A stretch of 64,000 nt of DNA, from contig NC_086097.1 of the NCBI RefSeq assembly GCF_963921235.1, positions 63,800,001 to 63,864,000 on the forward strand. Reading direction: 5' to 3'. Position 1 is the first letter of the stretch. Each line of letters begins with the position of its first letter. Below the pieces are notes generated by a model, which was not told the origin of the DNA, searched no databases, and was given only the letters and a program-made list of their open reading frames with translations. Of this stretch, positions 5,716-47,900 are shown piece after piece. Made by a program: the position numbers and the translations under genes. The DNA is from Mobula hypostoma (lineage: Eukaryota).

Positions 5716-6131
5716 TGATAGAGGGAAGAATGAATTCAATTAAATACCAGCTAATTCTGGAAGCAAGCATCATACAGTCTAAAAAAGCCAAAGATGAAAA
5801 GAGGATGGCTTCTACAACAGGATAATGAACCTAAACACACCTCAAAATACACAATGGACTACCTCAAGAGGCACAAGCTGAAGGTTTTGCCATGGCCCTC
5901 ACAGTCCCCTGACCTAAACATAATCGAGAATCTGTGGATAGACCTCAAAAGAGCAGTGCATGCAAGACGGCCCAAGAATCTCACAAAACTAGAAGCCTTT
6001 TGCAAGGAAGAATAGGCGAAAATCCCCCAAACAGAAATTGAACGACTCTTAGCTGGCTACAAAAAGCGTTTACAAGCCGTGATAGTTGCTGGTGAACACA
6101 GCAGGCCAGGCAGCATCTATAGGAAGAGGTA

Positions 6132-6173
6132 CAGTCGACGTTTCAGGCTGAGAACCTTCATCAGGACTAACTG
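6132..6173 (-). ncRNA. Minimal hammerhead ribozyme motif in PLE terminal repeat
   Basis: Minus strand: tagtc CTGATGA aggt-tctca-gcct GAAAC GTC gactg. Confidence 0.7.
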
Positions 6174-7264
6174 AAAAAAGAGCTAGTAGATTTGAAAGTG
6201 GGAGGGAGAGGGGGAGGGGGAATTCCAAAATGACAGGGGAAGACAGGAGGGGGAGGGATGGAGCCAAGAGCTGGACAGTTGATTGGCAAAAGGGATGTGA
6301 GAGGATCATGGGACAGGAGGCCTAAGGAGAAAGAAAGGGGGGGGAGCCCAGAGGATGGGCAATAACGGATAGGGTATGAGGGGGAGGTGGGGCATTAACA
6401 GAAGTTAGAGAAGTCAATGTTCATGCCATCAGGTTGGAGGCTACCCAGACGGAATATAAGGTGTTGTTCCTCCAACCTGAGTGTGGCTTCATCCTAACAG
6501 TAGAGAAGGCCGTGGATAGACATATCAGAATGGGAATGGGATTGGGACGTGGAATTAAAATGTGTGGCCACTGGGAGATCCTGCTTTCTCTGGTGGACAG
6601 AGCGTAGGTGTTCAGTGAAACGGTCTCCCAGTCTGTGTTGGGTCTCACCAATATATAGAAGACCACATCGGGAGCACCGGACGCAGTATATCACCCCAGC
6701 CGACTCACAGGTGAAGTGTCGCCTCACCTGGAAGGACTGTCTGGGGCCCTGACTGGTAGTGAGGGAGGAAGTGTAAGGGCATGTGCAAGGGATGTCCAGT
6801 CCCTATATACTTCCATCCACCACCAGGAAGGTCTCAAAGCTCTCCGCTTCTTTTTGGATTCTAGACCTAACCAGTTCCCCTCTACCACCACTCTGCTCCG
6901 TCCAGCGGAATTAGTCCTTACTCTTAATAATTTCTCCTTTGGCTCCTCCCACTTCCTCCAAACTAAAGGTGTAGCCATGGGCACCCGTATGGGTCCCAGC
7001 TATGCCTGCCTTTTCATTCGCTTTGTGGAACAATCCATGTTCCAAACCTATACTGGTATCTGTCCCCCACTTTTCCTTCGCTACATAGACGACTGCATTG
7101 GCCCTGCTTTCTGCACGCATGCTGAGCTCATTCACTTTATTAACTTTGCCTCCAACTTTCACCCTGCCCTTAAGTTTACCTGGTCCATTTCCGCCACCTC
7201 CCTCCCCTTTCTAGATCTTTCTGTCTCTATCTCTGGAGACAGCATATCTACGGATGTCTACTAT

Positions 7265-10200
7265 AATATCCTGGCAGGGAGATTAGCGGGGGCTACTGAG
7301 GTGACTTTAAACTAGAATGGTTGGAGGGTGGGAATCAAATTAAAGAGCCTAGGCGTGAGGAGGTTAGTTCACAACAGAGGGATGGGAACCAGTGCAGAGA
7401 GGCAGAGGGGTGTAAAGTGAGGGTAGAAGCAAAAAGTACAAAGGAGAAAAGTAAAAGTGGCAGGCCGACAAATCCAGGGCAAGCATTAAAAAGGGCCACT
7501 TTTCAACATAATTGTATAAGGGCTAAGAGAGTTGTAAAAGAGCGCCTGAAGGCTTTATGTGTCAATGCAAGGAGCATTCGTAATAAGATGGATGAATTGA
7601 AAATGCAGATTGTTATTAATGATTATGATATAGTTGGGATCACAGAGACATGGCTCCAGGGTGACCAGGGATGGGAGCTCAACATTCAGGGATATTCAAT
7701 ATTCAGGAGGGACAGACATGAAGGAAGGGGAGGTGGGGTGGCGTTGCTGGTTAAAGAAGAGATTAACGCAATAGAAAGGAAGGACATAAGCCCGGAAGAT
7801 GTGGAATCGATATGGGTAGAGCTGCGTAACACTAAGGGGCAGAAGACGCTGGTGGGAGTTGTGTACAGACCACCTAACAGTAGTAGTGAGGTCGGAGATG
7901 GTATTAAACAGGAAATTAGAAATGTGTGCAATAAAGGAACAGCAGTTATAATGGGTGACTTCAATCTACATGTAGATTGGGTGAACCAAATTGGTAAAGG
8001 TGCTGAGGAAGAGGATTTCTTGGAATGTATGCGGCATGGTTTTTTGAACCAACATGTCGAGGAACCAACTAGAGAGCAGGCTATTCTGGACTGGATTTTG
8101 AGTAATGAGGAAGGGTTAATTAGCGATCTTGTCGTGAGAGGCCCCTTGGGTAAGAGTGACCATAATATGGTGGAATTCTTCATTAAGATGGAGAGTGACA
8201 TAGTTAATTCAGAAACAAAGGTTCTGAACTTAAAGAGGGGTAACTTTGAAGGTATGAGACGTGAATTAGCTAAGATAGACTGGCAAATGACACTTAAAGG
8301 ATTGACGGTGGATATGCAATGGCAAGCATTTAAAGGTTGCATGGATGAACTACAACAATTGTTCATCCCAGTTTGGCAAAAAAATAAATCAAGGAAGGTA
8401 GTGCACCCGTGGCTGACAAGAAAAATTAGGGATAGTATCAATTCCAAAGAAGAAGCATACAAATTAGCCAGAGAAAGTGGCTCACCTGAGGACTGGGAGA
8501 AATTCAGAGTTCAGCAGAGGAGGACAAAGGGCTTAATTAGGAAGGGGAAAAAAGATTATGAGAGAAAACTGGCAGGGAACATAAAAACGGACTGTAAAAG
8601 CTTTTATAGATATGTAAAAAGGAAAAGACTGGTAAAGACAAATGTAGGTCCCCTGCAGACAGAAACAGGTGAATTGATTATGGGGAGCAAGGACATGGCA
8701 GACCAATTGAATAATTACTTTGGTTCTGTCTTCACTAAGGAGGACATAAATAATCTTCCAGAAATAGTAGGGGACAGAGGGTCCAGTGAGATGGAGGAAC
8801 TGAGCAAAATACATGTTAGTAGGGAAGTGGTGTTAGGTAAATTGAAGGGATTGAAGGCAGATAAATCCCCAGGGCCAGATGGTCTGCATCCCAGAGTGCT
8901 TAAGGAAGTAGCCGAAGAAATAGTGGATGCATTAGTGATAATTTTTCAAAACTCGTTAGATTCTGGACTAGTTCCTGAGGATTGGAGGGTGGCTAATGTA
9001 ACCCCACTTTTTAAAAAAGGAGGGAGAGAGAAACTGGGGAATTATAGACCGGTTAGCCTAACGTCGGTGGTGGGGAAACTGCTGGAGTCAGTTATCAAGG
9101 ATGTGATAACAGCACATTTGGAAAGCGGTGAAATGATCGGACAAAGTCAGCATGGATTTGTGAAAGGAAAATTATGTCTGACGAATCTCATAGAATTTTT
9201 TGAGGATGTAACTAGTAGAGTGGATAGGGGAGAACCAGTGGATGTGGTATATTTGGATTTTCAAAAGGCTTTTGACAAGGTCCCACGCAGGAGATTAGTG
9301 TGCAAACTTAAAGCACACGGTATTGGGGGTAAGGTATTGGTGTGGGTGGAGTATTGGTTAGCAGACAGGAAGCAAAGAGTGGGAAAAAACGGGACCTTTT
9401 CAGAATGGCAGGCGGTGGCTAGTGGGGTACCACAAGGCTCAGTGCTGGGACCCCAGTTGTTTATAATATATATTAATGACTTGGATGAGGGAATTAAATG
9501 CAGCATCTCCAAGTTTGCGGATGACACGAAGCTGGGTGGCAGTGTTAGCTGTGAGGAGGATGCTAAGAGGATGCAGGGTGACTTGGATAGGTTGGGTGAG
9601 TGGGCAAATTCATGGCAGATGCAATTTAATGTGGATAAATGTGAAGTTATCCACTTTGGTGGCAAAAATAGGAAAACAGATTATTATCTGAATTGTGGGC
9701 GATTAGGAAAAGGGGAGGTGCAACGAGACCTGGGTGTCATTATACACCAGTCATTGAAAGTGGGCATGCAGGTACAGCAGGCGGTGAAAAAGGCGAATGG
9801 TATGCTGGCATTTATAGCGAGAGGATTCGCGTACAGGAGCAGGGAGGTACTACTGCAGTTGTACAAGGCCTTGGTGAGACCACACCTGGAGTATTGTGTG
9901 CAGTTTTGGTCCCCTAATCTGAGGAAAGACATCCTTGCCATAGAGGGAGTACAAAGAAGGTCCACCAGATTGATTTCTGGGATGGCAGGACTTTCATATG
10001 AAGAAAGACTGGATGAACTGGGCTTGTACTCGTTGGAATTTAGAAGATTGAGGGAGGATCTGATTGAAACGTATAAGATCCTAAAGGGATTGGACAGGCT
10101 AAATGCAGGAAGATTGTTCCCGATGTTGGGGAAGTCCAGAACGAGGGGCCACAGTTTGAGGATAGAGGGGAAGCCTTTTAGGACCGAGATTAGGAGGAAC

Positions 10201-10452
10201 TTCTTCACACAGAGAGTGGTGAATCTGTGGAATTCTCTGCCACAGGAAATAGTTGAGGCCAGTTCATTGGCTATATTTAAGAGGGAGTTAGATATGGCCC
10301 TTGTGGCTACGGGGGTCAGAGGGTATGGAGGGAAGGCTGGGGCGGGGTTCTGAGTTGGATGATCAGCCATGATCATAATAAATGGCGGTGCAGGCTCGAA
10401 GGGCCGAATGGCCTACTCCTGCACCTATTTTCTATGTTTCTATGTTTCTATG
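7265..10452 (+). mobile_element. Young 5'-truncated CR1 LINE (CR1-C)
   Basis: Starts in the last codons of ORF1 (NILAGRLA..LN*), carries a complete ORF2, ends in (TTTCTATG)3; splits the PLE RT between DVYY and DSHSYL. Confidence 0.95.
7321..10353 (+). CDS. CR1 ORF2: AP endonuclease + reverse transcriptase, uninterrupted (true start uncertain)
   Basis: 1010 open codons; APE motifs NARS, GITETWL, MGDFN, SDH; RT motifs [21 protein letters not shown]. Confidence 0.93.
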   Translation: MEGGNQIKEPRREEVSSQQRDGNQCREAEGCKVRVEAKSTKEKSKSGRPTNPGQALKRATFQHNCIRAKRVVKERLKALCVNARSIRNKMDELKMQIVINDYDIVGITETWLQGDQGWELNIQGYSIFRRDRHEGRGGGVALLVKEEINAIERKDISPEDVESIWVELRNTKGQKTLVGVVYRPPNSSSEVGDGIKQEIRNVCNKGTAVIMGDFNLHVDWVNQIGKGAEEEDFLECMRHGFLNQHVEEPTREQAILDWILSNEEGLISDLVVRGPLGKSDHNMVEFFIKMESDIVNSETKVLNLKRGNFEGMRRELAKIDWQMTLKGLTVDMQWQAFKGCMDELQQLFIPVWQKNKSRKVVHPWLTRKIRDSINSKEEAYKLARESGSPEDWEKFRVQQRRTKGLIRKGKKDYERKLAGNIKTDCKSFYRYVKRKRLVKTNVGPLQTETGELIMGSKDMADQLNNYFGSVFTKEDINNLPEIVGDRGSSEMEELSKIHVSREVVLGKLKGLKADKSPGPDGLHPRVLKEVAEEIVDALVIIFQNSLDSGLVPEDWRVANVTPLFKKGGREKLGNYRPVSLTSVVGKLLESVIKDVITAHLESGEMIGQSQHGFVKGKLCLTNLIEFFEDVTSRVDRGEPVDVVYLDFQKAFDKVPRRRLVCKLKAHGIGGKVLVWVEYWLADRKQRVGKNGTFSEWQAVASGVPQGSVLGPQLFIIYINDLDEGIKCSISKFADDTKLGGSVSCEEDAKRMQGDLDRLGEWANSWQMQFNVDKCEVIHFGGKNRKTDYYLNCGRLGKGEVQRDLGVIIHQSLKVGMQVQQAVKKANGMLAFIARGFAYRSREVLLQLYKALVRPHLEYCVQFWSPNLRKDILAIEGVQRRSTRLISGMAGLSYEERLDELGLYSLEFRRLREDLIETYKILKGLDRLNAGRLFPMLGKSRTRGHSLRIEGKPFRTEIRRNFFTQRVVNLWNSLPQEIVEASSLAIFKRELDMALVATGVRGYGGKAGAGF

Positions 10453-11548
10453 ACTCTCACAGCTATCTGGGCTATTCCTCTTCTCACCCCGTCTCTTGCA
10501 AAAATGCCATCCCCTTCTCTCAATTCCTCCGTCTCCGCCGCATCTACTCTCAGGATGAGGCTTTTCATGCCAGGACGAAGGAGATGTCCTCCCTTTTTAA
10601 AGAAAGGGGCTTCCCTTCCTCCACCATCAACTCTGCTCTCAAACGCATCTCTCCCATTTCACACAAATCTGCTCTCACCCCATCCTCCCGCCACCCTACT
10701 AGGAATAGGGTTCCCCTTGTCCTCACCTACCACCCCACCAGCCTCCGGGTTCAACATATAATTCTCCGTAACCTCCGCCCACCTCCAACAGAATCCCACC
10801 ACTAATCACATCTTTCCCTCCCCACCTTCTGCTTTCCGCAGGAATCGCTCCCTACGCGACTCCCTTGTCCATTCGTCCCCCCCATCCCTCCCCACTGATC
10901 TCCCTCCCGGCACTTATCCTTGTAAGCGGAACAAGTGCTACACCTGCCCTTACACTTCCTCCCTCACCACCATTCAGGGCCCCAGACAGTCTTTCCAGGT
11001 GAGGCGACACTTCACCTGTGAGTTGGCTGGGGTGATATACTGCATCCGGTGCTCCCGATGCGGCCTTCTATATATTGGCGAGACCCGATGCAGACTGGGA
11101 GACCGTTTCGCTGAACACCTACGCTCTGTCCACCAGAGAAAGCAGGATCTCCCAGTGGCCACACATTTTAATTCCACGTCCCATTCCCATTCTGATATGT
11201 CTATCCACAGCCTCCTCTACTGTAAAGATGAAGCCACACTCAGGATGGAGGAACAACACCTTATATTCCATCTGGGTAGCCTCCAACCTGATGGCATGAA
11301 TATTGACTTCTCTAACTTCCGTTAATGCCCCACCTCCCCCTCGTACCCCATCCGTTATTGCCCATCCTCTGGGCTTCCCCCCTCCCCCTTTTTTTCTCCC
11401 TATGCCTCCTGTCCCATGATCCTCTCATATCCCTTTTGCCAATAGACTTTCCAGCTCTTGGCTCCATCCCTCCCCCTCCTGTCTTCTCCTATCATTTTGG
11501 ATCTCCTCCTCCCCCTGCCACTTTCAAATCTCTTACTAGCTCTTCTTT

Positions 11549-11590
11549 CAGTTAGTCCTGACGAAGGGTCTCGGCCCGAAAAGTCGACTG
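11549..11590 (+). ncRNA. Minimal hammerhead ribozyme motif (stem III mutated, GAAAAGTC)
   Basis: tagtc CTGACGA a gggt-ctcg-gccc GAAAA GTC gactg. Confidence 0.6.
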
Positions 11591-12448
11591 TACCTCTTCC
11601 TATAGATGCTGTCTGGCCTGCTGCATTCACCAGCAACTTTTATGTGTGTTGCTTGAAATTCCAGCATCTGCAGATTTCCTCGTGTTTACAAGCTGTGATA
11701 CTTGCCAAAGGGGGTGTTACTAAGTACTGACCATGTAGGGTGCCCAAACTTTTGCTTCGGGCCCTTTTCCTTTTTTGCTATTTTGAAACTAAATGGAAAT
11801 AATAAGGTTTTCTTGCTTAAGGTATTAAAGAACTGTGTCATCTTTCACTTTATGCCTTTTGGAAATCAGTTCATGTTTTACTCGGTTAGCTATTCACATT
11901 AACAGAAATTTTGATGAGGGGTACCCAGACTTTTGCATACCACTGTATATATCCTGTGCTCTCCAAATTTCTTCCAGAAATTCCATCTGTCGTTACGTTG
12001 CCGTCATTCCTGCCATTGTTCTGTTCCAATCAATTTTGGCCAATTCCTCTGTCATGCCTCTGTAATAACCTTCACTCCACCATAATGTTGATACATCGGA
12101 CTTTAGCTTCTCCTTCTCAAATTGCAGGGTGAATGTTATGATCACAGGGCACTAAAGGTTCATTTGCCAGAAGACCATAAGACACAGGAGTAGAATTAGG
12201 CCATTCAGCCCATCGAGTCTGTTCCACTATTACATCATGGCCGATCCCAGATCCCACTCAACCCCGTACACCTGCCTACTCACCATATCCTTTGATGCCC
12301 TGATCAATCAGGAAACTATCAACTCCACCGCAGTCTGTGGCAGAGCATTCCACAGATTCCCTACTCTCTGGCTAAGAGAATTCCTCCTTACCTTTGTTCT
12401 AAAAGGTCATCCCTTAATTTTGAGGCTGTGCCCTCTAGTTCTGGATAC

Positions 12449-20914: not shown

Positions 20915-21910
20915 ACAAACTTCCGGGTCCAACATATTATTCTCCGTAACTTCTGCCACCTCCAGCGGGATCCCACCACTAAGCACATCTTTCCCTCCTC
21001 CCCCCCTCTGCTTTCCGCAGGGATCGCTCCCTACACGACTCCTTTGTCCATTCATCCCCCCCCATCCCACCCCACTGATCTCCCTCCAGGCGCTTACCCT
21101 TGTAAGCAGAACAAGTGCTACACATGCCCTTACACTTCCTCCCGCACCACCATTCAGGGCCCCAGACAGTCCTTCCAGGTGAGGCGACACTTCACCTGTG
21201 AGTCGGCTGGGGTGATATACTGCATCCGGTGCTCCCGATGCGGCCTTCTATATATTGGCGAGACCCGACGCAGACTGGGAGATCGTTTCGCTGAACACCT
21301 ACGCTCTGTCCGCCAGAGAAAGCAGGATCTCCCAGTGGCCACACATTTTAATTCCACATCCCATGCCCATTCTGATATGTCTATCCACGGCCTCCTCTAC
21401 TGTAAAGATGAAGCCACACTCAGGTTGGGGAAACAACACCTTATATTCCGTCTGGCAGCCTCCAACCTGATGGCATGAACATTGACTTTTCTAACTTCCA
21501 CTAATGCCCCACCTCCCCCTCATACCCCATCCGTTATTTATTTATATACACACATTCTTTTTCTTTTTCCCTCTCTCCTTTTTCTCCCTCTGTCCCTCTC
21601 ACTATACCTCTTGCCCATCCTCTGGGTCACCCCCCCCCCCCGTCTTTCTCCCTAGGCCTCCTGTCCCATGATCCTCTCGTATCCCTTTTGCCAATCACCT
21701 GTCCAGCTCTTGGCTCCATCCCTCCCCCTCCTGTCTTCTCCTATCATTTTGGATCTCCCCCTCCCCCTCCCCCTCCCACTTTCAAATCTCTTACTAGCTC
21801 TTCTTTCAGTTAGTCCTGACGAAGGGTCTCGGCCCGAAACGTCGACTGTACCTCTTCCTAGAGATGCTGCCTGGCCTGCTGCGTTCACCAGCAACTTTGA
21901 TGTGTTGCTT
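20915..21910 (+). mobile_element. Penelope-like element 3' part (GIY-YIG + terminal repeat)
   Basis: ORF 20876..21478 with CKQNKCYTC linker and VIYC..LYIGET; close copy of 10742-11655. Confidence 0.9.
21807..21848 (+). ncRNA. Minimal type I hammerhead ribozyme motif, best-preserved copy
   Basis: tagtc CTGACGA a gggt-ctcg-gccc GAAAC GTC gactg: both core boxes, stem I, stem II, palindromic ACGT stem III, GUC cleavage triplet. Confidence 0.78.
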
Positions 21911-22480: not shown

Positions 22481-22699
22481 CTAATTGAGCATTCAGGAAT
22501 CAATGGTAGTTCACAGTGTGATGTTTGAAAGATACTATTTAAATCAGGAAAAAAAATCAAAACCAAAGCACGGAGTCTTTATTCGTCCGTTTCCTTTCCA
22601 GCAAAAAGAACACTGCGAAGATGGGTGCCGTAGATTTCGCGGCGCTGACCTGTTAAATAATGCACTGATGGCTCGGAACTTTGCCCTGCCCTTTGACAA

Positions 22700-23869
22700 T
22701 TAGCTCCGGTGTTCCACCAGTTCTCTGATTGGCTCAGGGGCACAAAGGTGAAAGTCCAATTGAAAAATAGCATTCTCAACTGTGAAGACTGGAACTTAAC
22801 CATTAAGACGTCAATATTAAATATCCCACTGCATATTTAGATATATAGTAAGCACATCGCCGTTGTTTAAATATTGTATTCTGAATGAGAGCCTCTTTGA
22901 AATAATCCTGTTAATCAACAACTGAAAAAGGTACAAAATGTTAATGATTGAAATTAAATTAATCTTGAACGCTAGCGTTATCTAGGGGCGGGGAAGCTAC
23001 CAGAGATTCACAATTCAGCGATTAAACCAGTAGCCAGGTCAAACTTTATGCTCTGATAGACATATCGCAGACGGGTTAGACCTTGTTAGTAAGTTTAAAA
23101 CTTTCTGAAGCTCGCTAACTGTCTCCAATATCAAGTTAGAGAAACTAGCTCCGACAGTTTTCATTGGGATAACGGCTGGACAGCAAAGGAGGGCAATGAA
23201 TGACACTGAAAAAGTTGCTTTCGATGTGGTCAAGTTTTGGGTAGGGCGTAATGTCCAAGGGAGACAAGTCAACGTAAGCTTTGGACAGCTCACTAATTAG
23301 TATCTGTGCCGCGATGGGCCGTCTGGAAGTTGACTTGTTTCTTTTCTACTCTAGAAATCCTTGTTAGATCTGCAGTAGCACGATAAATCCGAATACGGCG
23401 AGAGTCACAGAAAGCTTCACCTCTTTGTCACCTTTCAACCAGCAGTCGAAATAACCTAATAAATTTAGTCACGTGAAGTGATGGAAAGTGATTAAGTATT
23501 ATAAGTCAATAATTCTGACAATTACCTTTCAGTTGTTACAACTAATCTAATTTCCTTAATGTTACTAGGCTGAGCAATTCGCAAGCAATGTTCCTCGTTA
23601 CAGATAGCTCCCAAACCGTTGAAGTTTGATGATTTACCCAGGCAAGTCACCTTTTTTTTTGTACGAAGTTAATCATTAAACGCCCCACAGTCAAAGGACA
23701 CGTCGTAGCTTTTTGTTTAAGAATAATAACTGCAGCTCTTCAAAGGAAAACGGGAAAGGGTCGGTATTTATTAGTTGGCTGTGGGAGGAAAAACAACGTT
23801 CATTCTTTATTTCCACCTCAGCATCTGACTGCCCAAACTGAAGAAGGTACGTTGGAAGTGCAGATCAAC
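22700..23869 (+). promoter_or_regulatory. MIA2 promoter region with HNF1-like and HNF4/DR1-like sites
   Basis: No recognisable repeats, CpG-enriched. GTTAATCATTAAA at 23668-23680 and GTTAATGATTGAA at 22940-22952 (HNF1 consensus GTTAATNATTAAC); CAGTCA-A-AGGACA at 23688-23700 (DR1). Confidence 0.55.
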
Positions 23870-23981
23870 ATGGCGCCCGCCGCAGCCCTTAGCACTTCAC
23901 TTCTGTTCCTGCAGCTGATCCCATGCTTCATGATTTCCAAACTGTCGGACTTTAAATTGTGCGGGGATCCTGAATGTGAAA
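23870..23981 (+). CDS. MIA2: MIA2 exon 1: signal peptide and start of SH3-like domain
   Basis: aacATGG Kozak; [37 protein letters not shown]; donor A|gtaagt (phase 1). Confidence 0.93.
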
Positions 23982-26900
23982 GTAAGTGATGTAGTACAGT
24001 TTTAAACACTAAGGAAAGCATCTTGATTTCAGGAGTGATTGAGATTAATGATATTACGTGCCCAGTTGTGACATATACCAAGACCGTTTTAAGAGCTCCA
24101 CACTATGTCACACTGTTTTCCCAAATGATTGAAGATTTCTGTCTTTAGCCCTGACATGACACTCCGTGCCAGTTGTTCACTGGACTGATATCAATCTCAG
24201 ATTTGCTCTTTTACTGTTTGAATATGTGCCTTGTCCTGCACTGGTGCTTTTGCTTGAAGTAATTGTTGTTCTGTACTGCAAGCATTTTTATTACATTTTT
24301 AATAGTCTTGTATCTTAATGTGATACTTAAATGTTTCCCTGACTCCAGAGATTAGACGCATGTTAATGCATGTCTTGCCCAGATCCTACTATTTTAATGA
24401 CCAAAATTGAACACGGTATTTATTCTCTGGGAGTTAATTTCCTTGAGAAGCCTTTCAGTGGCGGTGAAACTCCTTAGACCGTTTCTTACTGTGCTAACCC
24501 TGATTTTGTGTTTAACTAGGTTCCACTGAAGTTCCTGAACGGGGACAGAGACACACCTCATAGTGGGGGAGGAGGAAGAGTACGGGAGCATAGCCGTTAG
24601 CATAATGCCTTTAAGCACAAGCTGTTAGATTGGTATTAAATTCCCACCCCTGCCCATCGAGTCTGCTCTGCCATTTCATCACGGCTGATCCATTTCCCTC
24701 TCAGTCCCAATCTTCCACCTTCTCCCTGTATCCATTCCTGGCCTGATTAATCAACCTCTGCCTTAATCATGCCCAGTTGGCCTCCACAACTGCCTGTGAC
24801 AAAGAACTCTGCAGATTCACCACTCTCTGGCTAAAGAAATTCCTCCTCATCTCCATTCTAAATGGACGTCCCTCTATTCTGAGGCTGTGTTCTTCTGGTC
24901 TTGGACTCCCCTATCATAAGAAATATCCTCTCCAAATCTGCTCTATTGAGGCCTTTCAACATTCAATAGGTTTCGATGAGAACTCCCCTCATTTTTCTGA
25001 ATTTCGGTGAGCAGAGGCCCAGAGCCATCAAATGCTCCTCATATGACAAGTCTTTGAATCCCGGAATCATTTTTGTGGACCTCCTTTGAATTCTCTCCAC
25101 TGTTAGCGCATCATTTCTTAGATAAGGCACCCAAAACTGCTTATACTTCAAGTGAGGCCTCACCGGTGTCTTATAAAGCCCTAACATTATATTCTTGTTT
25201 TTATATTCTAATCCTCTTGTTATAAATGCTAACATTGCATTTGCCTTCCTCACTACCAACTCAACTTGTAAATTAACCTTTAGGGAATCTTGCACAAGGA
25301 CTCCTAAGTCCCTTTGCACCTCAGATTTTAGAATTCTCTTTCTGTTTAGAAAATAGTCTGCACTTTTATTTCTTCGACCAAAGTGCATGACCATATAATT
25401 CCCAACGCTGTATTCCATCTGCCACTTATTTGCCCATTCTCTTAATCTGTCTAAGTGCTTCTGTAGCCTCTCTGCTTCCCCAACACTACCTGCCCCTTCA
25501 CCTGTTTTCATATCATCCGCAAACTTGGCCACAAAGCCATCATCAGTGCGGTAGTTATGATCTTTCTCTTTTTTAATTGGGTTCTTTGGGTTTCTTGCTT
25601 TGTGGCTGCCTGTAAGCAGACAAATCTCAAGGTGTATAATTTATAATTCTTTGATAATAGATGTACTTTGAATCTTTGAATCCAAATCATTGATATATAA
25701 TGTAAAAAGTAGCGGTCCCAACGCAAATCCTTGTGGAACACCAGTAGTCACTGACAGCCAACCAGAAAAAGTCTCTTTTATTCCCACTCTTTGCCTCCTG
25801 TCAATCAGCCCATGCTCTATCCATGCTGGTATCTTTCCTGTAATGCCATGGGCTCCTGTTAAGCAGCCTCATGTGTGGTACCTTGTCAAAGGCCTTCTGA
25901 AAATCTAAGTACACAACATCCACCAGTTCTCCTTTGTCTCTCCTGCTTGTTATTTCTTCAAAAAGTTCCAACAGATTTGTCAGGGAAGATTATGAACAAG
26001 TGAAAATCTACAGATGCTGGAAATCTGAAGAGGTTCAGCCCGAAATGTCAACTGTACTTTTTTTTTCCATAGATGTTGCCTGGCCTGCTGAGTTCCTCCA
26101 GTATTTTGTGTGTATTGTCGGGGAAGATTTCCCCTTAAGGAAACAATGCTGACTTTGGCCTGTTTTATTGTGTGCCTCCAAGTAACCCAAAACCACATCC
26201 TTAACAATCGGCTCTGATACCTTCCCAACCACTGAGGTCAGACTAACTGGCCTATAATTTCCTTTCTTCTGCCTCTCTCGCTTCTTGAAGGGTAAAATGA
26301 CATCTGCAATTTTCCAGTCCTCTGAAACGATGTCAGAATCTATTGATTCTAGAAAGATAATTACTAATACCTCCAGACTCTTCTGCTACCTCTTTCAGAA
26401 CCCTGGGGTGTAGTCCATCTGGTCCAGGTGACTTATTCATCTCCAGACCTTTCAGTTTCTCAAGCACCTGTATGTTTTTGCTCTGTGTGATGTACATGTC
26501 ACAAATAAAGCTAATCTGTTTCTTTTTCTGATTTACCATCTATATATGATTTCCATGGAGAATTCTATTCTGAACTTGACCTTCTCTCAGAATTCAATAA
26601 CCTGTTTGGTTTGTGGATTGTTCAATTATTATACATATTGGATTGTCAGTATAGTGATAATTTTTGTGTTACAGTATTTTGCCAATGTTTTTATGCTATT
26701 TGCTGTAGTTTATGTCCATCAAAAATAAAAATAGCAAATGCTGGAAACAATAATTTTTTGTCTCAGGTCAAAGACCCCATCGAACTGTTCCTCTTTCCGC
26801 TGATACTGCTGACTTGATTAGTGTTTCAAGTATTTTCTGATTTTATTTCAGATGGCCAGAATCCACGGTTGTTTATTTCTCTTTGTACCCATTCCTTCAT

Positions 26901-29900: not shown

Positions 29901-32900
29901 TGACAGCCCAAAGTAGAATGTTCATCTGGAGTGCTGAAGACAATAAACTGCGCAAATACAACAACAGGAATTAATAATAATAAATGGCTAACCAATAGCC
30001 AATAAGTCAATCAATATTTGAATAGCTCAGACTCAGCAGAAAGCAGCTGATTGGGCAGTCGAGGTCAGGTGACCAAACATTTTGAAAAGCTCAAACAGAT
30101 AAATAGAGGGATAGCTCAAGTGCAGCGGCCAGTGCGTGAGTGGGCCAGTGAAGGAGTGGAGCTTTGAGGCTTCGACGAGAAGAGGCGGAGGACAAGCTAG
30201 CTCGCAGTTAGTTTTTACAATGTCTCCTGAGATGGTGATGTGCCTCTCATGTGAGATGTGGCAGTCTTAGGGGAACGCCCCTCTCCCGCAGAGTCACATC
30301 TGCCAGAAGTGCATACGGCTGGGCGATCTGGAAGACCGTGTAAGGAATCTAGAGCAGCAGCTGGATGACCTTTGACTCATAAGGGAGAATGAGGCGGTCA
30401 TAGATGAGAGCTACAGGGAGGTAGTCACACCTAGGCTGTCGGAAGCAGGTCGCTGGGTGACAGTCAGAGGGGGGAAAGCGAAGGTGAGCAGACAGGTAGT
30501 GCAGAGCACCCCTGTAGCCATTCCCCTGAATAATAAGTTCACCGTCCTGGATACTGTTGGCAGGGATGACCGACCAGCTGTGAGCCACGGTGGCAGGGCC
30601 TCCGGCACTGAGTCTGACCCTGTGGTGCAGAAGGGTGGGACGGAGAAGAGGAGAGCTGTCGTCATTGGAGACACTATAGTCAGGGGAGCAGACAGGAGAT
30701 TTTGTGGACGTGAGAAGGACACCCGTATGGTTTGTTGCCTCCCGGGTGCCAGGGTCCGGGATGTCTCTGACCGGGTGCACGACATCCTGGTACGAGAGGG
30801 AAAGCAACGAGAAGTCGTGATACATGTTGGGACCAACGACGTAGGCAGGAAGAGGGATGAGGTCCTGAAGTGTGAGTTTCGGGAACTAGGCAGAAGGCTG
30901 AAGAACAGGACCTCAAGGGTGGCGTTCTCAGGATTGCTGCCAGTGCTACGTGACAGTGATGGTAAGAATTGGAGGAGATGGCAGTTGAATGCGTGGCTGA
31001 GGAGTTTGTGCATGGAGCAGGGTTTTAGATTTTTAGATCATTGGGATCTCTTCTGGGGAAGGTGGGACCTGTACAGATTGGAAGGGTTGCACCTGAACTC
31101 GAGGGGGAGCAATATCCTTGCAGGTAGGTTTGCTAGCATGGTTCAGGAGGGTTTAAACGAATTTGCGAGGGGGATGGGACCCAGAGAGATAGAGCAGTGA
31201 AAGAAGTGCATGGAGTAAAGCCAGATCTAACATATAGAGAGGCTTTGAGGAAAGCGAAGCAGAATAAACGGTGTAAAGACAGTAAGGGAGAAGGGCTGAA
31301 ATGCGTATACTTCAATGCAAGAAGCATCGGGAACAAAGGTGATGAACTGAGAGCTTGGATACATACATGGAATTATGATGTAGTGGCCATTACAGAGACT
31401 TGGCTGGCACCAGGGCAGAAATGGATTCTCAATATTCCTGGATTTCAGTGCTTTAAAAGGGATAGAGAGGGCGGGAGGAGGGGTGGCATTACTGGTCAGG
31501 GATACTATTACAGCTACAGAAAGGATGGGTAATGTAGCAGGATCTCTTTTAAGTCAATATGAGTGGAAGTCAGGAACAGGAAGGGAGCAGTTACTCTAAT
31601 GGGGGTATTCTACAGGCTCCCTGGTAGCAGCAGAGATACAGAGGAGCAGATTGGGAGGCAAATTTTGGAAAGGTGCAAAAATAACAGGGTTGTTATCATG
31701 GGCGACTTTAACTTCCCTAATATTGATTGGCACCTGATTAGTTCCAAGGGTTCAGATGGGGCAGAGTTTGTTAAGTGTGTCCAGGACGGATTCCTGTCAC
31801 AGTATGTGGACAGGCCGACCGGGGGAATGCCATACTAGATCTAGTACTAGGTAATGAACCGGGTCAGGTCACAGATCTCTCAGTGGGTGAGCATCTGGGG
31901 GACAGTGACCACTGCTCCCTGGCCTTTAGCATTATCATGGAAAAGGATAGAATCAGAGAGGACAGGAAAATTTTTAACTGGGGAAAGGCAAATTATAAGG
32001 CTAGAACTTGTGGGTGTGAATTGGGATGATGTTTTTGCAGGGAAATGTACTATGGACATGTGGTCGATGTTTGGAGATCTCTTGCGGCATGTTAGGGATA
32101 AATTTGTCCCGGTGAGGAAGATAAAGAATGGTAGGGTGAAGGAACCATGGGTGACAAGTGAGGTGGAAAATCTAGTCAGTTGAAAGAAGGCAGCATACAT
32201 GAGGTTTAGGAAGCAAGGATCAGATGGGTCTGTTGAGGAATATAGGGAAGCAAGAAAGGAGCTTAAGGGGCCGAGAAGAGCAAGAAGGGGGCATGAGAAT
32301 GCCTTGGTGAGTAGGGTAAAGGAAAACCCCAAGGCATTCTTCAATTATGTGAAGAAAAAAAGGATGACAGGAGTGAAGGTAGGACCAATTAGAGATAAAG
32401 GTGGGAAGATGTGCCTGGAGGCTATGGAAGTGAGCGAGGTCCTCAATGAATACTTCTCTTCGGTATTCACCAATGAGAGGGAACTTGATGATGGTGAGGA
32501 CAATATGAGTGAGGTTGATGTTCTGGAGCATGTTGATATTAAGGGAGAGGAGATGTTGGAGTTGTTAAAATACATTAGGACAGATAAGTCCCCGGGGCCT
32601 GACGGAATATTCCCCAGGCTGCTCCACGAGGTGAGAGAAGAGATTGCTGAGCCTCTGGCTAGGATCTTTATGTCCTTGTTGTCCACGGGAATGGTACCGG
32701 AGGATTGGAGGGAGGCAAATGTTGTCCCCTTGTTCAAAAAAGGTAGTAGGGGTAGTCCAGGTAATTATAGACTAGTGAGCCTTACGTCTGTGGTGGGAAA
32801 GCTGTTGGAAAAGATTCTTAGAGATAGGATCTATAGGCATTTAGAGAATCATGGTCTGATCAGGGACAGTCAGCATGGCTTTGTGAAGGGCAGATCATGT

Positions 32901-35900: not shown

Positions 35901-38900
35901 TTGGATCTTGCGGTTCATCCAGGGTTCTGTTTAGGGAAGACTCTGAATGGTTTTGTGGGGACCCACTCATCTACGGCTGTTTTAGTAAAGTCCATACAAC
36001 CATGATGCATTCATTCAGATCCCTGATGAGTCCTTGAACATGGCCTAATCCACTGACTTGAGGCAATCCCATAGCCTCTCCTCTGCCTCTCACAACAACC
36101 TTTGTTGTCCTAATCTCTGGAGTTTAGAGAAGGATAGCCAAGTAATCCAATTTACCAAAATATTGTCTGGGCATGGAATAGTAGGCATTCCTTATCTTAG
36201 TATAACAGTGGTTCAGTATGTTGGGACCTCTAGTACTACAGGTTATATGCTGATATTAACTGGGCAGGGATTTCTTCAAACCAGTCTGGTTGAAGTCTCC
36301 GACGATGATTTGAAATTCATTGGAATGGACTGTTTTTTGTTTGGAGATGGCATCCTGCAGTGTCTCAAGTGCTTGATTATAGTTGGCCACTGGTGTTATG
36401 TAAACTGAGGTCAGGTTCACGGATAAGAACTCCCTAGGTAAATGGAATGGACGGTAACACACATCAAAGTTGCTGGTGAACACAGCAGGCCAGGCAGCAT
36501 CTCTAGGAAGAGGTACAGTTGACGTTTCGGGCCGAGACCCTTCGTCTGGACAGAGGATGGATGGTATTTGACTATTAGATATTCCCAGTCAGTGCAACAT
36601 GAGTTTGACAAAACTTGCATATCAGAGCACCAGCAAGTGATCATGAAACACACACCACCTCCTTTTGCCTTTTCTGAATCAGCAACTCAGTCCATTCTGT
36701 AAATCAAGAAGCCTTCAGGTCTGACCGCTGTATCTGGCGTGCGGGGAGAAATGCATGTCTCAGTCAAACATGGAACACAACAGGATCTCTGTAATACTGA
36801 CTTGAGCTTCCCCCTCTCAAATTTCAGGGTGAACTCTATGATATTATGTTCACTGTCTCCCGTGTTGCTTTACCTTAAACTCCCTAATCAAATCCAGTTA
36901 CACAACGAATTACTCAACACCCAATCTGGAATAGCTGATCCCCTTGTGGGCTCAACCACAAGCTGCTCTGAAAGGCTATCTCATAGGCAAACTACAAATT
37001 CTCTCTCTTGGTATCCAAAATTGGCACCAAACTGATTTTTCCAATCTTATCTGCCTATTGAAATCCCCCTTAAGAACTGTAACATTGTCCTTTTGACATG
37101 CATTTTCTATCTCCTCTTGTAATTCATAGCCCACATATTGGTTGCTGTTTGGATGCCTGTATATAAGTCACGTCAGGGTATTTTTACCCTTGCAGTTCCT
37201 TGAGTCTACCTACAACAATGCAATCACAAAGCATGAAGACCTTTATATGGATCCCAAGATCTCTTGTAATACTATTAATTCTGTTTCAGATAGGGAAGCA
37301 ATTTGGATATTTTCCAAAAGATGCAGTTAAAGTTGATGATGTCATAACATCAACTGAAGTAGAGCTACCAACCCAGGTAAATTTAATTGATTTAATAGTG
37401 TTTTATATATTATTTTTAAAATATTTTCAAAATTAGGAAGTATATATTTTTAAAATACTTCAGCATTGTTAATATTTATATATTGTATGTAATATACTTT
37501 GTATTAATTGTGCTATAAAGCTTTGAAAAATAAGAAATTTTGGATCTATTTATCTGTTACTAGTGAGAGAAGGTTTGATGCGGAGCAGAGTACTGGTGAG
37601 CTATTACCCATAGTTGATTGTGTGAGGTTATTCCATGGTGAGACAGTTGCTCCCAAGTAACATAATCCCCACACAAAAGCAGCTCTTGATTTAAGATAAT
37701 CTGTCACAGAATTGCTGAGTACTAAAAAGTTATCAAAGTATTCTGTATGGGAAATGCAACTAAACACTTAACATTTGTTCTTTCAGGATAATGATTTCCT
37801 TTGTCTTAATGAAGAAAATTATCTCATAGATGATGAAGAAAATGATTTTGTGATTAATGAAAATGGAGAAAATTCTTTCTCAAAGTCAGAAGAAAGAGAA
37901 GCCACATTAGAACATGGAGCTAAGTTTAATAAATACAACCAGGTTTATGAAGGTAATTCTGCCAAAACTGAACCTGTGGACAACATAATCACTCTTTATA
38001 AAAGGCAGATTCAATCAGCACACCATACTACAAAGCTAGAGATGAACTCTGGTAAAGAGCAACTTCAAAAAAGCCTAGCACCTGATGAGAATGTACAAAT
38101 AAATGAAATTCTTTCACCAGTTAATCATCAGAATCAATTAAATGATGAGAGTGGCTCCGGACACACAGATAATAATGAATTTAACTTGTTCACTTTTCCT
38201 GACTCTGTTCAGAATGAACATATTAGTACAGAAAAAGATGAACATCCAGGGCAGGAAATCAGTGAAGATAAACCTATTACAATGGAAAGTAATGAAGTCT
38301 CTGAAGTTGTGCAAGAGGAATCTGATTGGATTGGATCTAGAATTAGTGGGTGGTTTGGTTTGGAAGCTAAGAAGGATGAACAGGCAGTGGAACCAAATGA
38401 CCTGTCTATGCAGCAAAACTCTTTTAAAAGTCGGAAAATTCCATTAGACAATGATGAGGACACTGTATTGTCAGAAGGGGGAGATAAAAATATGTATTAT
38501 GAGACTAAAGGAATCCTTGATTCTGGAATGTCAGGTTGGATTGGGGGTTTGTCAAAACTGTTAACTTTCAACAGTGATTTATCAGAAGATATTTTATCTT
38601 CAAAGGAAGGTGAAAATAATAAACATGAAAATACTTACCTTGCTGATGACTCAACAGACCCAAGTAAACCTTCAGTAACTAAGTCAGGAAACAAAATATC
38701 CGAGCATTCAGTAGCAGATCATTCAAGGCCAAAACATAGTGAATCCGAAAATATTGACAAAGATGATCAGAACTTAATGAGTAATGTTCGGTCACTGTTT
38801 GGTTTAAGTGACAAGTCATGGTTTGGGCAAATCAATGATGCTCAGGATTCAGATGTGTCAGTAGAAACAAAAGTCACCAGGGAAGAAAGTAGAAATGATA

Positions 38901-44900: not shown

Positions 44901-47900
44901 TTTCATCCAAAATGTAAGCATTATTTTACACTGTAAATGAGAAAATATATTGCAACAACTTGTACCAATGTCTCTGCTGCACTTTGTTCCAGTTAGATGA
45001 ATGTGTTTTAATGTTCTGAATGTTAACTTTTCAGTTTTGCTTCCTGTTTTCAGTTTTCTGTCTGTTCACTTCCTTCTCTCTTTTGACCTATATCTGAGTG
45101 TGTAAGTCCATTGGCGACAATGACTCAGTAACTCTCTCAGGTGGACATTTATGATATTCTAGGATAGACACTGTCAGCAGGTTCTTCAGACTGTTAATTG
45201 GCTCCAACCTTTCTGAGGGATGAGCATGCCCCTAGTAATGGACTACTATCTAACTCAAAAATAAGCTTCTGACCCCATATGCATTCTGTCACAAGAACCC
45301 CCCCACCTCACCTCTGCCTAGTTCACAATATAACCTATACCTGTATCTGCCCCTCGATTTGCTGACACATTTATGTGCCTATTTATATTTTGACTAAGCC
45401 TCTTAGCACTCTCCTGGCCTTCCATTTTTGATCTATGCACAAAATTAAGACTATCAAAAACAGACTGCACCAACTTGCTAGGCGAACAAAAGTACTTAAG
45501 GACAACATTATATTCAAGGTGAACTTGTATAAAGAATTCAAAAGAGTAGCAGTTTAGAATTAATCAAAAGTAGATTGAGAAATTGATTGACAGTATAAAA
45601 ATAGAATATGGTAGCACAATAAAGGCAAATGGTAGAAGGTTCTAAGTAAGTAAAAAGAAAAGGAGAACAACAGGAATTCTGCAGATGCTGAAAATTCAAG
45701 CAACACACATCAAAGTTGCTGGTGAACGCAGCAGGCCAGGCAGCATCTCTAGGAAGAGGTACAGTCAACGTTTCAGGCCAAGACCCTTTGTCAGGACTAA
45801 CTGAAGGAAGAGTGAGTAAGAGATTTGAGAGGGGGAGGGGGAGATCCAAAATGATAGGAGAAGACAGGAGGGGGAGGGATGGAGCCAAGAGCTGGACAGG
45901 TGATTGGCAAAGGGGATATGAGAGGATCACAGGACGGGAGGTCTGGGAAGAAAGACAAGGGGGAGGAACCCAGAGGATGGGCAAGGAGTATAGTCAGAGG
46001 GACAGAGGGAGAAGAAGGAGCGTGAGAGAAAGAATGTGTGTATAAAAATAAATAATGGATGGGGTACGAGGGGGAGGTGGGGCATTAACGGAAGTTAGAG
46101 AAGTGGATGTTCATGCCATCAGGTTGGAGGCTACCGAGACGGAATATAAGGTGTTGTTCCTCCAACCTGAGTGTGGCTTCATCTTTTCATCTAAAAAGAA
46201 AAGGAGGGTATGTTTGAACCCCACCCTGTCCGCGTCCCTCGCTGCACGTGCGAACCCCACCCTGTCCGCGTCCCTTGCCCTAGGTGCGAACCCCACCCTG
46301 TCCGCGTCCCTCGCCCTACGTGCGAACCCCACCCTGTCCGTGTTCCTCACTGTACATATGAACTCCACCCTGCCTGTGTCCCTCAGAGGTCCACATTAGA
46401 TTTGCCCTGCCCATGTGCCTTGCAGGTCAGCATCCAGTGTGCCAGATCTCCTGCAGTTCAGCTTGCTGTCTGCAGCTATGGTGCTCTCGTAGTTCTTTGT
46501 CCTCGGCATCCTTACTCAGCCTGTTCACACTCTACCGGTGTGTTGGCTTGACAATCTGCACCTCTTCACATTTTCGCGGCCCACTTTTTATCATCCTTCT
46601 CTTCCTACTCTTTTTTATCATTGTGCTCATTTTCTGTCAGTATTCCTGGGTTAATTGCCCCTTTTATTTGCTACTCTTTACTCCATTTACCATGCCTCAA
46701 GTGGTATACCAATGTTGAGACCAATTCAGCTCTTGTTTTCACCTTCATTTCTGAAAGGTTAACATTTCACAGGTTCTTGTCTATCTTCAGTTCCACAGAC
46801 CTACTTCCGAAAGTTTTCCCCATGACATCGTTCTACTCTCTTCATTCTTGTCAAAATTTAATACAGAAGTACAGTAATGTGGCTGAGAGTATTGCAGGCT
46901 TGGAGCCTCTCTAGTTGTAGCCATAGCCATGAATGGTGACGCTATTAAAACTGGTTTCGTACAAAAATGTAGGAAGAGTGCAGAGATTTCAGAGGATAGT
47001 AAAGTTGAACAAACCTCCCCTCTTTGGCTTAGTGTCTGCGTTGATAATTGTGCATTCAACATACTGCTCCAGGCACAGTGCTAGAATAATAGTCCATTAC
47101 AGAACTCAGGAAATCACTGTCCTTTGAGATGAAATGTGAAGCTGAGACGAGGCCACGTGCCTTCTCATCTGGACATAATATTAAGCATATTAAGCTTGGC
47201 ACTTTTTCCAAGAAGAGCACAGAAATTAACCCCATATGTACAAGTGTACACACACACACACACACACACGTTTGTGGTCTAAGGTAGAAGATGAGTTATT
47301 AACTTCAAATTTTCTGCATTATCACTCAAAGAGTTGAACTGCACGTGCATGTAATAAGAGCGTCTTAGACCTCCAGATGGTCGTAGCCTTGGGTAGAATG
47401 AGGTGAGTTATACAGCTCTTGTTATGTGCACGTGCAGTTCAACTCTGAGTGAAAATGCAGAAAGTTTGAAGTTAATAACTCATCTCATTCTACCCTAGGT
47501 CACGAACTTCTCAATCATACCTCTTGCGTGCACGCGTGCGTATTGTGTGTCTGTCTCTCTCTATCTCGTATATGTGTGTGCACACACACTCTATATAGGA
47601 GTTTATTGTTTGCAATTTGGCTGCAATATTTCTCATGCTACATTACTAAAAACATTTTAAAAGGGTTCTCGACTAGCTTTGACATCTCCGAGTTAAGCAA
47701 TGTACTAAAAAGATGCAGAAGATTATTTCCTTAAGAATCGATGGCTCAGCATGCATCATTGAGGATCCTCACCATCCACAACATGTTCTCTTCTCGCGGC
47801 TGCCGTCACTCAGAAAGTACAGGAGCCTCAGGGCTCTCACCACCAGGTTCAGGCACAGTTATTACCCCTCAACCATCAGGCTCATGAACCAGAGGGGTTA

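What the first reader, a model, noticed from the sequence alone, without database searches (positions are those of the whole stretch)
21807..21848. Minimal hammerhead ribozyme in the terminal repeat of a Penelope-like retroelement family
Seen in sequence: tagtc-CTGACGA-a-gggt(ctcg)gccc-GAAAC-GTC-gactg. This has both catalytic boxes, a 4-5 bp stem I, a 4-bp stem II, one extra A after the CUGANGA box, and a loop-less palindromic ACGT stem III. Copies occur at 6132 (-), 11549 (+), 26025 (+), 36516 (-) and 45762 (-). Established: Penelope-like elements carry minimal type I hammerheads in their pLTRs, thought to cleave as dimers. Inference: this family processes its RNA by self-cleavage after GUC (21843). 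It is invisible to ORF-based annotation.
Basis: partly seen in the sequence, partly recalled or inferred. Interest (0 to 1): 0.8.

Follow-up and report, generated by a model that had tools for sequence, protein, structure and literature searches.

The report
Penelope jumping-gene minimal hammerhead ribozyme
The motif is really there, at the end of a cut-short copy of a very abundant Penelope-like jumping gene; it is a known kind of small, likely weakly self-cutting RNA, and the genomic copies run through the predicted cut site unbroken, while short copies tend to begin at the motif's outer edge.

Summary
It ends a 1-kb, 5'-truncated copy of a Penelope-like element: RT, CX5CxxC linker and GIY-YIG endonuclease, 1014-aa ORF, hammerhead-ORF-hammerhead units of 3.51 kb. 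The host is likely a cartilaginous fish, with at least 81,445 copies. The kind was described in 2014 (PMC4209133), and this scan noted it before in this genome. The five other window copies named are real but each has lost core or stem bases. Four repeat subfamilies share the block from stem I to stem I while the flanks diverge, but no pair shows a compensatory change. All 138 tail-selected copies end 54-114 nt past the cut site, 125 span it, and 2 start at it. Instead 47 start at -35..-23, the 5' arm of the motif. Cleavage is untested. Ordinary in kind; the pile-up of 5' ends is the only lead.

The parts
20922..21910 (+). 5'-truncated solo copy of the Penelope-like element (endonuclease end, 3' UTR, hammerhead, short tail)
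20915..21498 (+). frameshifted fragment of the ORF end (aa 821-1014 of the intact ORF in L095): CX5CxxC linker and GIY-YIG endonuclease
   Evidence: Pfam GIY-YIG E 1.4e-4, just under cut-off; tblastn 80% identity
21790..21809 (+). branch-point-like word, pyrimidine tract and CAG just before the motif; resembles a 3' splice site (resemblance recalled, untested)
   Evidence: sequence
21811..21815 (+). stem I 5' strand; 21810-21816 also fits a recalled initiator consensus; many short copies begin here
21816..21823 (+). CUGANGA box plus the extra A between positions 9 and 10.1
   Evidence: PMC4209133
21824..21835 (+). stem II (4 bp) and loop 2; G10.1-C11.1 here, G10.1-U11.1 in 77 of 123 sampled copies
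21836..21843 (+). GAAA box, loop-less palindromic ACGU (stem III only between two copies), C17; predicted cut after 21843
21844..21848 (+). stem I 3' strand (21844 = position 0 in this report)
21849..21910 (+). sequence past the cut site up to the nearer of two preferred 3' ends (about +65; the other is about +103)
6084..11687 (.). one two-armed insertion of the same family: inverted arm 6084-6785 (-), main arm 6791-11687 (+) with RT and EN, split by a LINE at about 7270-10450; 16-bp target-site duplication with one mismatch; decayed motifs at 6132-6169 (-) and 11553-11590 (+)
36459..36551 (-). 93-bp mini copy starting at position -31 (G of stem I); decayed motif
45666..46189 (-). 5'-truncated copy; decayed motif at 45762-45799
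26025..26095 (+). decayed motif and tail of an older subfamily

Best explanation
This is a minimal hammerhead motif in the end repeat of a Penelope-like retrotransposon, likely of the Neptune clade, which would cut weakly after GUC only when two motifs pair through ACGU, likely with help from the element's protein, while new genomic copies are likely made from RNA that is continuous across that site. Steps: (1) tandem or read-through transcripts carry hammerhead-ORF-hammerhead units of 3.51 kb (structure shown, transcription inferred). (2) One motif alone is predicted to fold into an inactive hairpin; two copies can form the double hammerhead (predicted; cleavage inferred from related elements). 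(3) The element's protein likely nicks both DNA strands and starts reverse transcription inside the RNA about 65 and 103 nt past the cut site (end positions shown; mechanism inferred from Anolis Poseidon). This gives solo or two-armed insertions. (4) Synthesis often ends on the motif's 5' arm (shown; cause open). Cleavage is therefore likely a side branch that trims multimeric RNA or limits it, not the step that makes the template. The copy at 21811 is a solo, truncated insertion and is likely inert.
For: Motif and numbering. Intact ORF with DKG, YIDD, CX5CxxC and GIY-YIG. Two same-strand motifs about 3.5 kb apart in 5 of 20 long-ORF regions (L094, L095, L102, L104, L109). Family A against subfamilies B-D: motif block 87-90% identical, upstream 30 nt 46-57%, linker 53-65%. 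In contigs of four other runs, loose ends fall at 21812 and 21849, the two ends of stem I. 3' ends cluster at +55..+74 (80 of 138) and +100..+109 (45 of 138); the shortest is +54. In 49 of 54 inverted arms one arm has the short end and its partner the long end (counted by hand; both arms of one insertion may be counted). Monomer hairpin -12.9 against hammerhead-like fold -8.9 kcal/mol. PMC4209133: a single min-HHR did not cleave, dimers and trimers cleaved weakly. PMC11167929: cleavage needs the protein, core mutants do not affect insertion, and reverse transcription starts at two internal sites.
Against: No cleavage was measured for this family. No compensatory change: 0 of 10 pairs in 18 distinct sequences, no better than shuffles. 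The subfamily comparison is partly circular: copies were found by a core match (at most 6 changes in 32 nt) and 16 of 79 non-main rows were hand-picked; only the AGTC at -32..-29 lay outside the filter. The tail is also conserved (72-81%), so conservation is not unique to the motif. The double hammerhead (-16.7 kcal/mol, no tertiary terms) lies far above the best competing dimer (-34.1). In longer context stem I has a probability of 0.01-0.03. Most sampled copies carry G10.1-U11.1 instead of the conserved G-C. 8 of 30 copies picked for a 5' end in -4..+8 start exactly at the cut site, which could record cleaved templates.
Confidence: 0.62

Rival explanations
1. Cleavage is on the main path: both hammerheads cut, the unit RNA is ligated into a circle that restores the site, and reverse transcription around the circle gives more-than-unit copies.
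For: Proposed in PMC4209133. 16 of 25 ORF-start copies that reach -20 extend beyond -60, up to 1.4 kb into the previous unit. The two repeats of L094, L095 and L104 agree at subfamily-marking sites. 8 of 30 junctions lie at position 0.
Against: Tandem read-through explains the same copies without cleavage. The two repeats of L109 differ at subfamily-marking sites. 6 of those 8 junctions overlap an inverted arm by 3-5 nt (stem I is itself an inverted repeat), and 6 of 30 lie at -4 on another 4-nt microhomology. In the tail-selected sample 2 of 138 start at -1..+1, at a background rate of 0.3% per nt. In Anolis, catalytic mutants insert normally.
Confidence: 0.2
2. The motif no longer cleaves in this family. 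The block is kept as a promoter element (initiator at -32) or as a protein-binding or RT-stop structure, and the hammerhead letters ride along.
For: 5' ends pile up at -35..-30: 25 of 84 ends in -65..+24, binomial p 1e-10; 13 of 31 without inverted arms, p 3e-8. No covariation. G10.1-U11.1 is common in young copies. An inactive hairpin is the favoured fold. Penelope has an internal promoter in its repeat (PMC2377424 passages).
Against: All catalytic bases are the majority state in four subfamilies, although four CpG sites overlap core or closing pairs and decay at 5-16% per site in inserted copies. That suggests purifying selection in the active lineages. The related Anolis motif cleaves with protein.
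Confidence: 0.15
3. This particular copy has a host role, acting on transcripts of the MIA2/cTAGE5-like gene whose first coding exon lies 2.0 kb downstream on the same strand.
For: It is the only intact motif of six in the window and lies near the gene start at 23870.
Against: 52 of 93 sampled copies that span the motif are intact too, so intactness is common. It has no partner motif nearby. Copies decay at neutral-looking rates.
Confidence: 0.03

Closest known systems
Minimal hammerheads (min-HHR) in the pLTRs of metazoan Penelope-like elements, including fish Xena, Poseidon and Neptune (Cervera and De la Pena 2014, PMC4209133; parts 1-2 of 4 read, supplements searched by term, file 1 not searchable)
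   Same: Type I, short helix I (4-5 bp), extra base between 9 and 10.1, G10.1-C11.1, palindromic 15.2-16.2 with no loop 3, one motif in each flanking repeat, mostly single motifs from truncated copies.
   Different: Helix II is 4 bp (7-8 bp in the Schistosoma families). At least 81,445 family copies against about 4,000 and 9,000 motifs reported for coelacanth and Xenopus. Copies are near-uniform. G10.1-U11.1 is common. No cartilaginous fish is named in the text I read.
Poseidon of Anolis carolinensis, PAc (Frangieh et al. 2024, PMC11167929; parts 1-2 of 4 read plus a term search)
   Same: Hammerhead in the pLTR; genomic 3' ends at two sites a tail-length apart downstream of the cut site; unprocessed RNA as template.
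   Different: Other clade (ours has the CX2-5CxxC linker). The ORF here starts 138 nt after the cut site, not inside the ribozyme. The preferred ends lie before the ORF start.
Canonical EN+ Penelope-like elements, Neptune/Nematis type (Craig et al. 2021, PMC8557442; passages read)
   Same: RT then C-terminal GIY-YIG, CX2-5CxxC linker, CCHH motif, partial tandems, inverted 5'-truncated partner, 30-40 bp tail at one end only.
   Different: The pile-up of 5' ends on the hammerhead's 5' arm is not mentioned in the passages seen.
Non-LTR retrozymes (bioRxiv 10.64898/2026.07.22.740005; part 1 of 5 and passages read, supplements closed)
   Same: Type I hammerheads derived from PLE pLTRs; reported in one chondrichthyan.
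   Different: Retrozymes are short tandem repeats; these are dispersed solo or two-armed insertions of a coding element.

Membership tests
min-HHR of metazoan PLEs | CUGANGA and GAAA boxes with NUH cut site, type I topology | tested here: met
min-HHR of metazoan PLEs | no helix III loop; palindromic 15.2-16.2 | tested here: met
   ACGU at 21839-21842
min-HHR of metazoan PLEs | extra base between 9 and 10.1; G10.1-C11.1 | tested here: met
   A 21823; G 21824 pairs with C 21835 in this copy; U11.1 in 77 of 123 family copies
min-HHR of metazoan PLEs | one motif in each repeat flanking an RT-EN ORF | tested here: met
   5 of 20 long-ORF regions
min-HHR of metazoan PLEs | covariation in the stems | tested here: inconclusive
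   0 of 10 pairs change on both sides in 18 sequences, but the stems hardly vary; no family with a swapped stem I closing pair among 41 genome-wide hits for a 12-nt stem II arm
min-HHR of metazoan PLEs | self-cleavage as a dimer | not testable with these tools
   needs a bench assay; only contigs, no raw RNA reads, were listed
EN+ Penelope-like element | single ORF, RT with DKG motif followed by GIY-YIG endonuclease with CCHH | tested here: met
   L095, 1014 aa; Pfam RVT_1 and GIY-YIG hits, both under cut-off; motifs; 459 homologues with the same Pfam set
EN+ Penelope-like element | partial tandems, inverted partner, tail at one end, target-site duplication | tested here: met
   TSD of 8 bp or more in 12 of 18 non-inverted minis
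Neptune clade | CX2-5CxxC linker between RT and EN (shared with Nematis) | tested here: met
   CKRNKCYTC at aa 882; definition from PMC8557442
Neptune clade | placement in the RT tree with named Neptune elements | not tested
   no named reference sequences were held; Neptune is inferred from the linker and a vertebrate host
Non-LTR retrozyme | non-coding tandem repeat with a hammerhead in each unit | tested here: not met
   the copy is solo and carries an endonuclease fragment

The most novel reading that the evidence does not exclude
The element's RNA starts at the first base of the hammerhead: an initiator overlapping stem I (A-32/G-31) lets solo end-repeats make 95-135 nt hammerhead-plus-tail RNAs that the element's protein mobilises. 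About a third of all copies would then be complete mini-transcripts, not random truncations, and the genome would record the RNA's 5' end at single-base resolution, 31 nt before the cut site.
Probability: 0.3. Interest if true: 0.5.

Novelty: new member of a known kind. Interest (0 to 1): 0.22.

Why it matters
The motif itself adds one more family to a class known since 2014. What hammerheads do in Penelope elements is still open, and a family of some 10^5 young copies is a large fossil record of the RNA templates. It shows templates continuous across the cut site, two preferred priming points, and 5' ends gathered on the motif's 5' arm. That makes a start-site versus structure-stop test cheap (one CAGE or 5' RACE experiment) and argues against reading such motifs as proof of RNA processing.

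Tried and rejected
Rfam scan: no hammerhead model matches; not informative, since the motif lacks stem III. Sequencing runs: no RNA holder listed, contigs only, so no RNA ends could be read; no evidence either way. Genomic record of cleavage: an apparent spike at the cut site among 1,689 copies with 5' ends in -4..+8 is mostly explained by microhomology with an inverted arm and is absent from the tail-selected sample. Snap-back of one cDNA as the source of two-armed copies: does not fit cases where the 5'-shorter arm has the longer tail (e.g. L128-L132). Minis as a separate SINE-like subfamily: their marker bases match those of long copies. A cap-derived extra G: no clear excess by eye among starts at -32. 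Spliced templates at the CAG before -34: no precise intron-loss junction among the short-start copies listed. cDNA hairpin as the cause of the stop: the predicted DNA fold is weak (-4.9 kcal/mol). A family with a swapped stem I closing pair: 41 scattered hits, none forming a family. Thermodynamic support for the fold: z -1.27 and -0.37, none. A fixed 5' end at 20922, first suspected: it is just this copy's truncation. Lunse et al. 2017 on dimer cleavage could not be read; I saw only its title in a reference list.

Full report
Observation. In this report position 0 is 21844. The motif is not chance: 0 matches in 100 shuffles, and a descriptor finds 175 hits in 1.30 Mb of family-enriched DNA against 0 in three shuffles. 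The five other copies lie where stated, but only 21811-21848 passes the descriptor; the others have lost a core base or a pair. Rfam does not see the motif.

What carries it. The copy spans about 20922-21910 and begins inside a GIY-YIG endonuclease reading frame that is now frameshifted. A second insertion in the window (6084-11687) has RT and endonuclease, an inverted short arm, a 16-bp target-site duplication and a LINE inserted in it. The genome (3.48 Gb) has 7,645 exact matches to the 28-nt core, 81,445 to a 32-nt word of the tail and 46,643 RT candidates. I fetched 20 regions with long open frames, picked from the 150 listed. Five have a motif on each side of the ORF about 3.5 kb apart. 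L095 encodes 1014 aa with DKG, YIDD, a CX5CxxC linker and a GIY-YIG domain, starting 138 nt after the first cut site. By the definitions in PMC8557442 (passages) this is a Neptune- or Nematis-type element; Neptune is inferred and no tree was built. The best named homologue is from a bamboo shark (70%) and the neighbouring host gene is closest to a ray's (55%), so the host is likely a cartilaginous fish.

Is the motif conserved? Among 138 inserted copies, non-CpG core positions differ at 1.6%, stems at 2.3% and the downstream flank at 2.1% (biased low, since copies were chosen on the tail), while CpG positions differ at 5-16% apart from the subfamily site at -9. So copies decay alike after insertion. 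52 of 93 copies that span the motif keep core and stems. Between subfamilies the block -32..+3 is 87-90% identical while the 30 nt upstream are 46-57% and the linker 53-65% identical; the tail is 72-81%. The caveat is that these copies were found by a core match and 16 of 79 non-main rows were hand-picked, and subfamilies B-D were not tied to an ORF. The AGTC of stem I lay outside the filter and is still shared. Contigs of four other runs diverge from the window at 21812 and 21849, the ends of stem I. No pair shows a compensatory change (0 of 10). G10.1-U11.1 occurs in 77 of 123 copies and at the 3' motif of all 20 long-ORF regions.

Folding. One motif prefers an inactive hairpin (-12.9 against -8.9 kcal/mol). 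In longer context stem I is rarely formed. The double hammerhead scores -16.7 against -34.1 for the best two-strand fold, without tertiary terms. This agrees with the weak, dimer-only cleavage reported in PMC4209133 and the protein-dependent cleavage in PMC11167929, but shows nothing by itself.

What the ends record. The sample was chosen on the tail only: 153 copies from 91 stretches plus 18 incidental ones, of which 138 remained after dropping those under 86% identity or at a locus edge. All end at +54 or beyond, 80 at +55..+74 and 45 at +100..+109. In 49 of 54 inverted arms one arm has the short end and its partner the long one (hand count). This matches the published tail and the two internal priming sites of Anolis Poseidon. 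125 of 138 span the cut site and 2 start within 1 nt of it. Of 30 copies carrying the ORF start, none begins there and 16 reach beyond -60. A targeted search found 1,689 copies with a 5' end in -4..+8. Of the first 30, 8 start at 0, 6 at -4, 9 at +6..+8, 5 at -3..-1 and 2 are other cases; 6 of the 8 overlap an inverted arm by 3-5 nt. I read this as microhomology supplied by stem I, but cleaved templates are not excluded for a small fraction.

The unexpected pattern is upstream. The rate of 5' ends per nucleotide is 0.3% at -15..+24, 2.7% at -29..-23, 4.4% at -35..-30, 1.0% at -45..-36 and 0.10-0.14% beyond -66; the mode is -31 (13 of 138). Against a uniform spread over -65..+24, 25 of 84 ends fall in -35..-30 (p 1e-10), and 13 of 31 without inverted arms (p 3e-8). 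12 of 18 non-inverted minis have a target-site duplication, and they share marker bases with long copies. A search aimed at -40..-28 (3,426 hits) gave a broader spread among 33 non-inverted copies: 7 at -29, 6 each at -31 and -32, 5 at -35. The edge is therefore a zone, not one base. A start site at an initiator-like word (consensus recalled) would explain it, and Penelope has an internal promoter (PMC2377424, passages). Against that, ORF-start copies end there less often (5 of 25 against 50 of 117, p 0.04), and no cap-derived G stands out. A structure-linked stop is the rival. I found no paper describing this pile-up, and none on Penelope hammerheads in sharks or cartilaginous fish; subscription papers, Lunse et al. 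2017 and unseen supplements may hold either.

Mechanism and verdict. Most likely this is a dimer- and protein-dependent, weak ribozyme kept by selection in active lineages, acting on multimeric RNA as a side branch, while insertions are primed past the site on continuous RNA. This copy is solo, truncated, 2.0 kb upstream of a MIA2/cTAGE5-like gene, and likely inert. Papers also seen in passages: PMC3846280 and PMC6765202. Earlier notes of this scan reach the same class and also mention the pile-up; I had the pile-up before seeing those notes, and they are not counted as support. New member of a known kind; interest 0.22.

Noticed in passing
window 23870-62154 (+): Exons of a MIA2/cTAGE5-like gene, with a 3.9-kb exon at 37772-41683; the first coding exon is 2.0 kb downstream of the motif.
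   Followed up: partly
window 7270-10450 (+): LINE with endonuclease and RT (1017-aa open frame) inserted into the RT of the two-armed Penelope copy.
   Followed up: partly
window 30376-34067 (+): LINE relic with an esterase-like ORF1 (GDSL/OSK hits) and RT fragments.
   Followed up: no
window 21790-21809 and the same place in family copies: Branch-point-like word, pyrimidine tract and CAG end 2 nt before stem I; in D. virilis Penelope an intron ends at the 5' end of helix I. No spliced copy was seen.
   Followed up: partly
L201, L202, L207, L209, L210, L228: A third cluster of 3' ends at about +247..+267, inside the start of the ORF, in 6 of 30 copies; possibly a third priming site.
   Followed up: no
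L101-L102 (G000:C40:570000-589999): Two full units in tandem with three motifs, plus an inverted unit.
   Followed up: no
G000:C2:157816717-157817680 (one search list): Four matches at a 310-bp period: a short tandem array that includes the tail-to-ORF junction and may be retrozyme-like; not fetched.
   Followed up: no
one search list: A few copies read TTAGTC directly into GACTG, i.e. the core between the two stem I strands is missing at a GTC microhomology; at least one (L136) is an inverted junction instead.
   Followed up: partly
window 22600-22800: CpG-rich stretch with CCAAT-like words between the element and the host gene; possibly the host promoter.
   Followed up: no
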